A stretch of DNA of 64,000 bases, taken from assembly GCA_040954595.2 (NCBI GenBank), contig CM082589.2, positions 2,600,075-2,664,074 on the forward strand, read 5' to 3'. The translations under genes and the position numbers were made by a program. The notes beneath the pieces were generated by a model. The model saw only the letters and a program-made list of their open reading frames with translations, had not been told where the DNA came from and searched no databases. This DNA comes from Balanoglossus misakiensis (lineage: Eukaryota; Animalia; Hemichordata). Numbering within the stretch: the first letter of the stretch is position 1; every line of letters starts with the position of its first letter. Shown in pieces: positions 2,292-5,400 of the stretch.

Positions 2292-2472
2292 TCATGCACC
2301 GAACATCTTTTTCACCGTATATCCAGGCATGGAATACAAGAACAAGCCTACCAGGGCCAAAAAGAGAGCCACCATCAGCATTTTTATGAGCAGCCATTTC
2401 AAGCGAACACACACCAAGTATTTCAAAGCCTTTAGAGGTCCCATGAAGAAGATAAACGAACTGTCAGGTCGA
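2292..2472 (-). CDS. OTOF: Otoferlin copy A, distal alternative C-terminal transmembrane exon
   Basis: 181 nt. Polypyrimidine tract plus CAG acceptor at 2473-2475. Encodes [60 protein letters not shown] minus-strand AATAAA lies downstream at ~2012-2017. Not captured in the ORF track. Confidence 0.85.
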
Positions 2473-5400
2473 CTGTTGGGAGGAGAGAGAGATAATTTGG
2501 TGTAACACGCCGTCTAAGAACTAACCAGGATTACCAAAACCAGTCACCAGACTTAATCGATCGTAAACCCTGTTGTGTAAACCTAAGTTATTGCGAAGCA
2601 TTTGCTCTATGGTAGCTCTTTATCTAACACACATCATGGATTGAGAATTAAGTGAATAATTATTGAGATGGTAAGGTTTCGTTGTAGAGGAAAGGAAAAT
2701 AATGCAGGGGAAAGACTTAGTAGGAGGGTCATTATGAGATTCCAGGATCGCAGAAGACGACATGTGATATTCATAATACCTTTCTTTCCGATTCCTACAT
2801 GAGAATTGGCACTCACTTATACACCAAACATTTTCTTCACGGTGTAACCAGGCATGGAGTACAAGAAGAGACCAAGCAGCGCCGTGAATAATGCCGAGAT
2901 CAACAATTTTATGAGGAGCCGTTTCAGTCTCACACATATCAGGTATTTGAGAGCCCGCAGTGGTCCCATAAAGAAGATGAAAGAGCTGTCTGGACGACTG
3001 ATGAGAAAGGACGAAACAGATGATAGATATTTATTTTTGGAAACACGCCCTTCACCATAAACCTCTGCCAACCATTCACACCAAATAACGTAAACCTATT
3101 TGCAATACACCAGGTGTAGTCTGAATCTGGAACACAAATAATAATAGACAAAGTGGCCAAGTAACCTCTGGGTGCGAAAACCCTATTCCGTAACAAGCAA
3201 GCATCTCATTCGGTGTAGTCCCAGAGTGCAGATGTGAAGAGATGAGAGTAAAGTATCAAGAACCCGCCGCCATTTAGTCAAGTTATTGCCATAGCCCGTC
3301 ATTGTGCATGTGTATGGACTGGAAACATGCGCAGTGACACAACTCGTGGAGCATAGCGCACGGCGCAATTGGGCAAGGAACTTGTCTACATATACCATTT
3401 TGTCTGTTATGGTACTGTCAGAGACGCCCATAACTGGCGAACACATAACACTACCCTATAAAACTGCCATAAAAATCCAGTTGCACAGTGCAATGTGTAG
3501 CAAACAGCGCACAAAAAAGGCTTATCACTCACTTAGGTTTATCAAGTGGTTCAGGTTCCTTTCGTTCAAGACCAGCTGGGCTCTTCTCCGCCTCTTCTTC
3601 TGTCATCAAAACCAATTCCGCTTCCACTTTACCCTGTGTGCGAAAACAGCAAAATAGGCATGCTGATTTGCAGAAATCTCAAACGTGTGACAAAAAATAA
3701 TAAACAGTGGAAAGTAACAGTGATGAAATTTGTAAGGGTCATCAGACCCCTTTAAGGTATTACATTATACATTACGGACTACTTTTACATGTGTATGGGA
3801 ACCAGGCAATTTTTCATTGCTTTCTTAATGCAGTTACAAGATGCTTACGGTGAGTTCTGTTTCTTCCTGGCCAATCTTTCTGGAAAATGGCCAGAACCCT
3901 TTCATTCTCTTCAACTTGAACATTGACACTTGTGGCACGGATCCATCTGTGGCTAGCATTTTCAGACTGCAGTGTTTGGAGTCCTTGGCCCCGCGAGGAA
4001 ATCGGTTGAGGTCAAAGACCACACTCCCTGAAATTAAGATAAAAGCCTTGGTGTAAATATATCATTTGGACAAACGTTATGGCATAAAAAGGAATTATAA
4101 AAAGGATGTTTTCTAATGGAATGCTTGTCAACATACCATCACGTTTTTGTCGTGGTTTCCATTAAATTTGGTGTTTGTGAAATGGTGAACTAAAATAATA
4201 GCATGGGTACGGCGAATTCGAAAATGTTACTTCCTTTTACTAATTGGTATCATATGAATGAAAGCAACCATATTCATTGACTTCCAGAGATATACACACC
4301 TAGAATATCATCACTAGAGAATGTGTCATTGTCCCACACTTGCAAGTTCAATCGGGGTGGTATCTTGTATTCAGTTTCATCAATGGCGAATCGAGATTCC
4401 TTCTTCACGATGACGATTTTTTCCTCGGAGGAAAGGTAGTCGAATGGAAAGATAAATCTCCAGTTGAAGTTTCCCTCTCCAGTCAACGACCTGTAATGGC
4501 AAATTCGTTAAACTACGTTCATTTGTCAGTATATCTACACACATGTCATTTCACTGACTATGCAGTTATATGCACTGTGGTGTAAAATAAACATCTAAAT
4601 ATCAAAGGTGTGTAATAACAGAGATACAGAGACTAAGCATTGTAACAGAATAAGCAATACATTAACACTATACCTGTAGTGAACATCAGTACTTTGAACG
4701 TCATCTTCATGTAACCATCTGCAATTAAAGAAAACTAATTTTATAACACATACATAAACATACATACAAACAAATATACAAAAATAAATACATGTAAACA
4801 CATATAACCAAACAAACAATATGAATGTATGTATGTATGTATGTATGTATGTATGTATGTATGTATGTTTGTATGTATGTATGTATGTATAATGTATGTA
4901 TAATGTATGTATGTAGGTATGTACGGTATGTATGTATGTATGTATGCATGCATGCATGCATCCATTTTCGTGTACGTGTAACATCAATGATTCTGAAATA
5001 AAGGAGATTAATATCCAAACTGCGATCAAAGATTGGAATAACACATGCCACTACTCACCCCTTAACATATATGTCGCTCATTTTCTCTCCTGTGAGAAGA
5101 GAACTGTCTTCCAAAATCACATCGTAGGTATTCCAGATAATGACACGTAGTTCATATCGCTTTGGTTTCCTGGGAGTGATGTCTACTGGGTTGCTTGGGG
5201 GCATATCCATCGGGAACATATCAACCCACATTTCAAGTTTTCCCTACAAGTGGTGCAAAGTTCAATGGTATCAAGTTATGGAAAATATTCAAAATATCAG
5301 GACAGAGACGGTAGATAGCACACTTACTAGTCGGAGCACATGTGAATATTTGCGCAAAAATACAATTACTTAAAGGGCTGGTATACATCAGAAAAATTAT

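What the first reader, a model, noticed from the sequence alone, without database searches (positions are those of the whole stretch)
2292..2997. Duplicated, alternatively usable transmembrane tail exons arranged like mammalian OTOF exons 47/48
Seen: copy A has two 181-nt paralogous last coding exons, both intact with good acceptors. The proximal one ends TAA|GTGAGT, a donor directly after the stop, so it is a cassette. Inclusion gives tail 1 and turns the distal exon into 3'UTR; skipping gives tail 2. A stop at the exon end should evade NMD, and I see no AATAAA between the two exons. Established: mammalian OTOF uses the same logic (exon 47 included in brain, skipped in cochlea so that exon 48 supplies the tail). 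The two exons here resemble each other and the copy B tail more than the recalled human exons. That implies either convergent re-invention of the switch or an ancient switch homogenised by conversion. Copy B has only one tail exon.
Basis: partly seen in the sequence, partly recalled or inferred. Interest (0 to 1): 0.8.

Follow-up and report, generated by a model that had tools for sequence, protein, structure and literature searches.

The report
Swappable membrane anchors in acorn-worm otoferlin
An otoferlin-like gene, likely of an acorn worm, has two intact, selected copies of the exon for its membrane anchor that are likely spliced as alternatives, a set-up that likely arose separately from the similar brain/cochlea switch of human OTOF and that also turns up in amphioxus (seven copies) and other animals.

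Summary
Observation confirmed: two intact 181-nt tail exons (2997-2817, 2472-2292, minus strand), same phase, AG acceptors, a donor directly after the first stop. They diverged under strong purifying selection (dN 0.13, dS about 1.8). The closest relatives, Ptychodera flava and Glandiceps talaboti otoferlin-like, each have two equal-length annotated isoforms differing in this tail. Copy B split from A after the Ptychodera lineage, so B probably lost one tail. Recent conversion is not supported: synonymous sites are near saturation. Orthology to vertebrate exons 47/48 by position is rejected (p-AU 0.004-0.019), and A belongs to a fast-evolving paralog lineage; copy C is the OTOF-like one, its tail unseen. 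Best reading: independent origin. The tail exon is also multiplied in amphioxus (7 intact copies), gar (3 annotated tails), Nematostella, Owenia and 4 of 37 metagenome loci. Splicing in this organism is not shown, tissue use is unknown, and 59-column trees cannot exclude an old switch renewed by turnover. A known kind of event, with an unreported (10 searches) recurrence at one exon.

The parts
3533..3633 (-). Penultimate coding exon of copy A; its donor (TAA|GTGAGT, phase 2) serves either tail exon
2817..2997 (-). Proximal tail exon, 181 nt: juxtamembrane helix, TM helix, short luminal end in Val; stop is the last codon of the exon
   Evidence: PF16165; 53/59 identical to P. flava isoform X1 tail
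2811..2816 (-). Donor GTGAGT directly after the proximal stop
2473..2816 (-). 344-nt spacer, predicted intron when the proximal exon is included; no A(A/T)TAAA, no ferlin exon
2292..2472 (-). Distal tail exon, 181 nt, ends in Ala; stronger acceptor; counterpart of the single tail of copy B
2012..2017 (-). AATAAA, candidate poly(A) signal shared by both isoforms (inferred)
2292..19695 (-). Copy A: otoferlin-like gene, about 48 exons and 2074 aa in a script-made model without stops, 73% to P. flava otoferlin-like
20337..35366 (-). Copy B: sister paralog of A, one tail exon (20517-20337), no trace of a second
44403..58658 (+). Copy C: first five exons (C2A) of a slow-evolving, OTOF-like gene; tail outside the window

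Best explanation
Copy A carries two intact, selected copies of its last coding exon that are likely spliced as alternatives, so that one gene would make two otoferlin-like proteins differing only in the 59-residue membrane anchor, and this pair likely arose in early acorn worms independently of vertebrate OTOF exons 47/48. Mechanism (inferred from sequence): splicing 3533>2997 then 2817>2472 gives tail 1, with the distal exon as 3'UTR; the stop sits at the junction, so the 50-nt rule for NMD (established knowledge) would not trigger. Splicing 3533>2472 gives tail 2. The weaker proximal acceptor would make inclusion the regulated choice and skipping the default. Both exons can sit in one mRNA, so this is a stop-containing cassette, not steric mutual exclusion. 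Function (least certain step): the anchors differ in TM polarity and at three positions that separate the two types in all three species (14, 34, 59), which would tune membrane insertion, sorting or lipid contact in different cell types. The exon is an easy unit to duplicate: it holds the whole anchor and the stop, so a copy needs only its own acceptor and cannot shift a downstream frame (inference), which would explain the repeated gains.
For: Shown: anatomy; dN 0.13, dS 1.8, Fisher p 3e-12; changes private to the proximal exon 18 synonymous to 12 non-synonymous on 44 and 133 sites, p 6e-6. P. flava X1/X2 (both 2074 aa) and G. talaboti X1/X2 (both 2064 aa) differ in this tail, one ending in Val, one in Ala, as in A. 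Val-ending tails of the three species form a group (90/81, 91/95, 91/91). Body tree without tails: A+B sisters (SH-aLRT 99), A+Ptychodera rejected p-AU 0.007; dS proximal/distal (1.8) exceeds the A/B mean over 25 exons (0.89) and distal/B (0.77). Independence: hemichordate plus crinoid tails one clade 100/97; proximal+exon 47 rejected p-AU 0.019, 0.012, 0.004; all first-position exons as one clade rejected p-AU 0.0007; with the six motif columns removed exons 47 and 48 group together 94/94 (with one unnamed long-branch row) and the hemichordate tails 94/98. The human event is dated 'Vertebrata' (PMC8373072 supplement). The homologous juxtamembrane stretch of dysferlin (aligned) has a shown role in phosphatidylserine sorting (PMC5031802, passages).
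Against: No RNA evidence from this organism; the relatives' isoforms are predicted XP_ models whose read support and genomic order I did not see. The distal exon is closer to P. flava X1 (48/59) and to its own proximal partner (50/59) than to P. flava X2 (36/59) or G. talaboti X2 (41/59); a proximal+distal clade within A is not rejected (p-AU 0.33) and the distal group is unresolved. With all 59 columns, the freely searched trees place ambulacrarian tails with vertebrate exon 48 (95/96; 97/91), and all Cys-motif tails as one clade fit best (lnL +5.6); after removing the motif these groupings are only borderline disfavoured (p-AU 0.053, 0.047). Trees have 53-59 columns and bootstraps had not settled. 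The hydrophobicity contrast is marginal in Glandiceps (41.5 vs 41.9). The tail of copy C was not seen.
Confidence: 0.65

Rival explanations
1. Old switch with turnover: the deuterostome or bilaterian ancestor already had two tails (Trp-type like exon 47, Cys-type like exon 48). The lineage of A kept only the Cys type and duplicated it again, or homogenised the pair early in hemichordates.
For: All ambulacrarian tails seen carry the exon-48-like Cys motif and group with exon 48 on full columns. Multiple tails occur in many lineages; L008/L009 hold a Cys-type plus Trp-type pair.
Against: The grouping disappears when six motif columns are dropped. In L008 the Cys-type exon is first and matches its own partner (45/59), the reverse of the vertebrate order. 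A beetle paralog also has the Cys. Listed isoforms of Octopus, Patella, Tubulanus, corals and Clytia show one tail type, though annotation can miss a second.
Confidence: 0.2
2. Both tails are used, but by alternative last exons (competing acceptors with cleavage in the spacer at a non-canonical signal); the donor after the stop is incidental.
For: None of the 7 amphioxus exons nor the 4 metagenome proximal exons has GT right after the stop; only amphioxus exon 6 has a strong donor nearby. Variant hexamers lie in the spacer (AAGAAA 2786, GATAAA 2624).
Against: The donor is identical to one the gene must use, sits exactly at the exon end, and 0.25% of positions score as high.
Confidence: 0.12
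3. One exon is a dead or recent copy, or the distal exon is a remnant of a separate gene.
For: The proximal acceptor is weak and the proximal exon has more private replacements (12) than the distal (1).
Against: Purifying selection on the pair and on the proximal branch alone; 53/59 identity to P. flava X1; no other ferlin exon in 1-3532.
Confidence: 0.03

Closest known systems
Vertebrate OTOF exons 47/48 (TMD2 brain, TMD1 cochlea; PMC10394277, PMC7768390)
   Same: Same exon of the same family, 59 codons each; the upstream copy carries a stop and is skipped to use the downstream copy.
   Different: Not orthologous by position (p-AU 0.004-0.019). The host is a fast-evolving paralog (C2A 33% to human against 50% for copy C). 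Both tails are Cys-motif types, where vertebrates pair a Trp type with a Cys type. The less hydrophobic helix is the proximal one here, the distal one in human. Tissue use unknown.
Tandem duplicated exon substitutions, C-terminal class (PMC8373072, PMC9741552)
   Same: Homologous alternative 3' coding exons under purifying selection; 77 of 236 human events are C-terminal, they often cover TM helices, and independent origin in orthologous genes is documented (passages).
   Different: Those passages compare human, fly and nematode; recurrence at one exon across hemichordates, amphioxus, lophotrochozoans and an anemone was not seen in them.
Ptychodera flava and Glandiceps talaboti otoferlin-like isoforms X1/X2 (RefSeq models)
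   Same: Two equal-length isoforms with Val- and Ala-ending tails; nearest relatives of A (73% and 57%).
   Different: Annotated only; the window's lineage added the A/B gene duplication, with one tail in B.

Membership tests
Type 2 ferlin (otoferlin-like) | Tandem C2 domains and C-terminal Ferlin_C/TM, colinear with otoferlin | tested here: met
   Colinear tblastn to otoferlins from C2A to tail; PF16165 on all three tails, the distal one below Pfam's cut-off as an isolated exon; 49% to human OTOF
One-to-one OTOF ortholog | Slow-evolving copy closest to vertebrate OTOF | tested here: not met
   Copy C is the slow copy and sister to the fast clade A, B, Ptychodera, Glandiceps (98/99, 135 columns); A is a paralog at the same locus
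Tandem duplicated exon substitution | Two sequential homologous exons in one gene, same length and phase | tested here: met
Tandem duplicated exon substitution | Both copies under purifying selection and kept across species | tested here: met
   isoform pairs in two other hemichordates
Tandem duplicated exon substitution | Both copies spliced in alternative transcripts | tested here: inconclusive
   No RNA run could be examined; only predicted isoforms of relatives
OTOF exon 47/48 switch (membership) | Each exon closer to its vertebrate counterpart than to its partner (criterion of PMC8373072) | tested here: not met
   50/59 within the pair against 30-34/59 to human tails; proximal+exon 47 rejected
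OTOF exon 47/48 switch (works like) | Upstream copy holds the stop, has a donor and is skippable | tested here: met
   At the level of sequence only
OTOF exon 47/48 switch (works like) | Tissue-specific choice (brain against sensory cell) | not testable with these tools
   Needs tissue or single-cell RNA

The most novel reading that the evidence does not exclude
The otoferlin anchor exon is a switchable cassette of very old standing: animals from sea anemone to amphioxus keep several anchors on one calcium-sensing fusion protein, renewing them by duplication and loss (seven in amphioxus), and the cochlear-type Cys motif marks an anchor class for sensory or secretory cells that is older than vertebrate hair cells or is reinvented whenever a second anchor appears.
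Probability: 0.25. Interest if true: 0.75.

Novelty: new member of a known kind. Interest (0 to 1): 0.52.

Why it matters
Why OTOF keeps two anchors, and what the cochlear one does differently, is open: the review read here says the tissue split rests on RT-PCR and Northern blots (PMC10394277), and pathogenic variants map to both exons (PMC8373072). If the same exon was duplicated and kept under selection several times, anchor choice is a recurring way to tune otoferlin, and the natural series (2 tails in acorn worms, 3 in gar, 7 in amphioxus, repeated Trp-to-Cys change) gives ready constructs for testing which residues set targeting. It also shows that gene callers split such arrays into false small genes.

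Tried and rejected
No RNA holder was listed for 2200-5300, so no reads were laid; this is no evidence either way. No whole genome is held, so the tail of copy C could not be read. The Glandiceps locus was not on record, so its exon order and donor were not seen. My first models suggested that A and B lack C2A; one search showed that wrong. Similarity between the introns upstream of the two tail exons (score 53, 0 of 500 shuffles) was dropped: 7 of 210 unrelated acceptor-flank pairs reach it and a stricter scoring loses it. The 3' flank similarity of distal exon and B is only modest (29 of 1000 shuffles for 200 nt, 3-9 of 1000 for 100 nt). No remnant of a proximal exon was found in B's 213-nt last intron (42 of 500 shuffles) or 640 nt downstream. 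Palmitoylation of the juxtamembrane Cys is my guess; two searches listed no paper on it for otoferlin by title or abstract. No solved otoferlin tail matched; only dysferlin. No fold was run: a 59-residue helix pair would not decide anything. The scan's earlier findings held nothing.

Full report
Observation. On the minus strand the penultimate exon of copy A (3633-3533) is followed by two 181-nt exons, 2997-2817 and 2472-2292. Each follows an AG, joins in frame and gives 59 codons and a stop. The first ends TAA|GTGAGT, the same 9-mer as the donor of the penultimate exon; it outscores 19 of 49 training donors and 0.25% of positions match or exceed it. The proximal acceptor is weaker (above 7 of 48 training sites) than the distal (above 21 of 48). 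The lack of AATAAA in the 344-nt spacer is true but uninformative (P = 0.53). A profile scan finds three tail exons in the window, two in A and one in B, and no other ferlin exon between 1 and 3532.

Selection. Proximal against distal: pS 0.68 (dS about 1.8), pN 0.12 (dN 0.13), 50/59 identical residues, Fisher p 3e-12; neutral simulations never exceeded 37/59. Changes private to the proximal exon are 18 synonymous and 12 replacement (p 6e-6 against site counts). Both exons are therefore maintained as coding sequence, and recent conversion between them is unlikely.

The locus. Script-made spliced models give A about 2074 aa and B about 1978 aa without stops; the middle, poorly conserved exons are uncertain. 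The nearest named proteins are otoferlin-like proteins of the acorn worms Ptychodera flava (73% to A) and Glandiceps talaboti (57%), so the window is likely an enteropneust (inference). A third copy, C, starts at 44403 on the plus strand. Its C2A is 50% identical to human OTOF against 33% for A, and it is sister to the fast clade of A, B, Ptychodera and Glandiceps (98/99 on 135 columns). So the two-tail gene is a fast-evolving paralog; C is the conservative copy and its tail is outside the window. A CIMIP2-like exon (PF10629) and a CIB1-like exon flank the cluster; a table in PMC5897035 lists OTOF, C2orf70 and CIB4 near one human SNP (passage).

Conservation in relatives. Glandiceps isoforms X1 and X2 (both 2064 aa; 6 of 6 cluster members read) and Ptychodera X1 and X2 (both 2074 aa; 3 of 3 read) differ in this tail; one ends in Val, one in Ala, as in A. 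Three columns separate the two types in all three species and B (14, 34, 59). The Val-ending tails group together. Against a clean picture: the distal exon of A is closer to Ptychodera X1 (48/59) than to X2 (36/59), and a within-A pair is not rejected (p-AU 0.33). On a tree without tails A and B are sisters and A+Ptychodera is rejected (p-AU 0.007), and the tail pair is more diverged at silent sites than A and B are (1.8 against 0.89 over 25 exons). The simplest order is: tail duplication in early enteropneusts, then A/B gene duplication, then loss of the proximal exon in B.

Relation to vertebrate 47/48. Human exon 47 carries a stop and is skipped so that exon 48 supplies the cochlear tail (PMC10394277 and PMC7768390, passages); the event is dated 'Vertebrata' (PMC8373072, supplement row). 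In tail trees the ambulacrarian tails are one clade (100/97, 41 rows) and pairing proximal exons with exon 47 is rejected (p-AU 0.019, 0.012, 0.004). One signal points the other way: all ambulacrarian tails seen share the exon-48-like Cys motif, and full-column trees group them with exon 48. In one search a constrained tree with 47+48 together was 2.8 lnL better; it was 11.6 worse (p 0.24). With the six motif columns removed, 47 and 48 group together (94/94, with one unnamed row), and amb+48 and all-Cys clades fall to p-AU 0.053 and 0.047. Rows left out: the third gar tail; four long-branch rows (P0229, beetle, P0207, amphioxus exon 5). The motif looks convergent, but 53-59 columns do not settle it.

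Recurrence. The first search returned a Branchiostoma belcheri gene model made of tail repeats. Its locus L001 holds one penultimate exon followed by seven intact 181-nt tail exons, all with AG acceptors in the same phase, pairwise pN 0.04-0.37 against pS 0.49-0.74. Gar isoforms show three tails, Nematostella isoforms two, differing up to the SMP motif, Owenia models two (one of them a fused model). Of 37 metagenome loci, 4 hold two tail exons behind one penultimate exon (L008, L009, L013, L015; L008 and L009 are near relatives; 45-53 of 59 identical within pairs; lophotrochozoan-like by sequence); most others are short, spliced or hold one tail. A clade of all first-position exons is rejected (p-AU 0.0007). 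Listed isoforms of Octopus, Patella, Tubulanus, corals and Clytia show one tail type (for large clusters only 15 members were listed). None of these other proximal exons has a donor directly at the stop, so the exact OTOF-like cassette form is seen only in A.

Mechanism. Shown: two selected, in-phase anchors with splice signals. Inferred: inclusion gives tail 1 with the distal exon as UTR and no NMD; skipping gives tail 2; the weak proximal acceptor is the control point. Speculative: function. The proximal helices are more polar in A and Ptychodera (Kyte-Doolittle sums 37.1 and 38.5 against 42.5 and 44.9), barely so in Glandiceps (41.5, 41.9); in human the distal, cochlear helix is the more polar (43.5 against 52.7) (scale values recalled). 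The juxtamembrane stretch aligns with the dysferlin WRRF motif, which drives phosphatidylserine sorting (PMC5031802, passages), and otoferlin is inserted as a tail-anchored protein through TRC40 (PMC7768390, passage). Anchor choice would thus plausibly set insertion, sorting or lipid contact.

Novelty. The class is known, and so is its tendency to arise independently (PMC9741552, passages). Ten searches listed no paper on multiple otoferlin tails outside vertebrates; I saw listings only, except passages of PMC10394277, PMC7768390, PMC8373072, PMC9741552, PMC2923515, PMC5897035, PMC5031802 and supplement searches of PMC8373072 and PMC9741552 (no OTOF in the latter). The library lacks most subscription papers and bioRxiv supplements. 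Verdict: a real, selected exon pair that works like OTOF 47/48 at the level of sequence, is not its ortholog by the tests run, and is one case of a repeatedly duplicated exon. Interest 0.52.

Noticed in passing
L001 3717-11356 (Branchiostoma belcheri): Seven intact tandem tail exons behind one otoferlin penultimate exon; the gene caller split them into two false small genes. Spacers 78-2034 nt.
   Followed up: partly
L001 175-600: A tandem repeat in the intron after the penultimate exon copies the exon's 3' end with its donor.
   Followed up: no
window 44403-58658 (+) and about 60300-63800: Copy C has a 12.4-kb first intron; after its fifth exon lie retrotransposon-like reading frames (protease-, RT/RNase H- and integrase-like peptides by eye; not tested against a library).
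   Followed up: partly
window 39590-39874 (-) and 3-128 (-): CIMIP2-like (PF10629) and CIB1-like exons flank the otoferlin cluster; human OTOF, C2orf70 and CIB4 are neighbours, suggesting old microsynteny.
   Followed up: partly
window exons 16015-15829, 13029-12877, 17112-16978 against their B counterparts: A/B silent divergence is patchy (dS about 0.3 in these, above 1.3 in others), suggesting local conversion between the paralogs.
   Followed up: no
P0370 (gar), P0233: A third, divergent tail is annotated in gar otoferlin isoforms, with a similar peptide after an exon-48-type end in P0233.
   Followed up: no
P0420, P0427 (Nematostella); P0166: Two tails differ only up to the SMP motif and share the last nine residues, suggesting mutually exclusive internal exons in cnidarians.
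   Followed up: no
L008 1362-1852, L009 1562-2045: Pair with a Cys-motif exon first and a Trp-motif exon second, 122-129 nt apart: the reverse of the vertebrate order.
   Followed up: partly
P0296 (Glandiceps X5): An annotated isoform ends without a TM helix after the penultimate exon.
   Followed up: no
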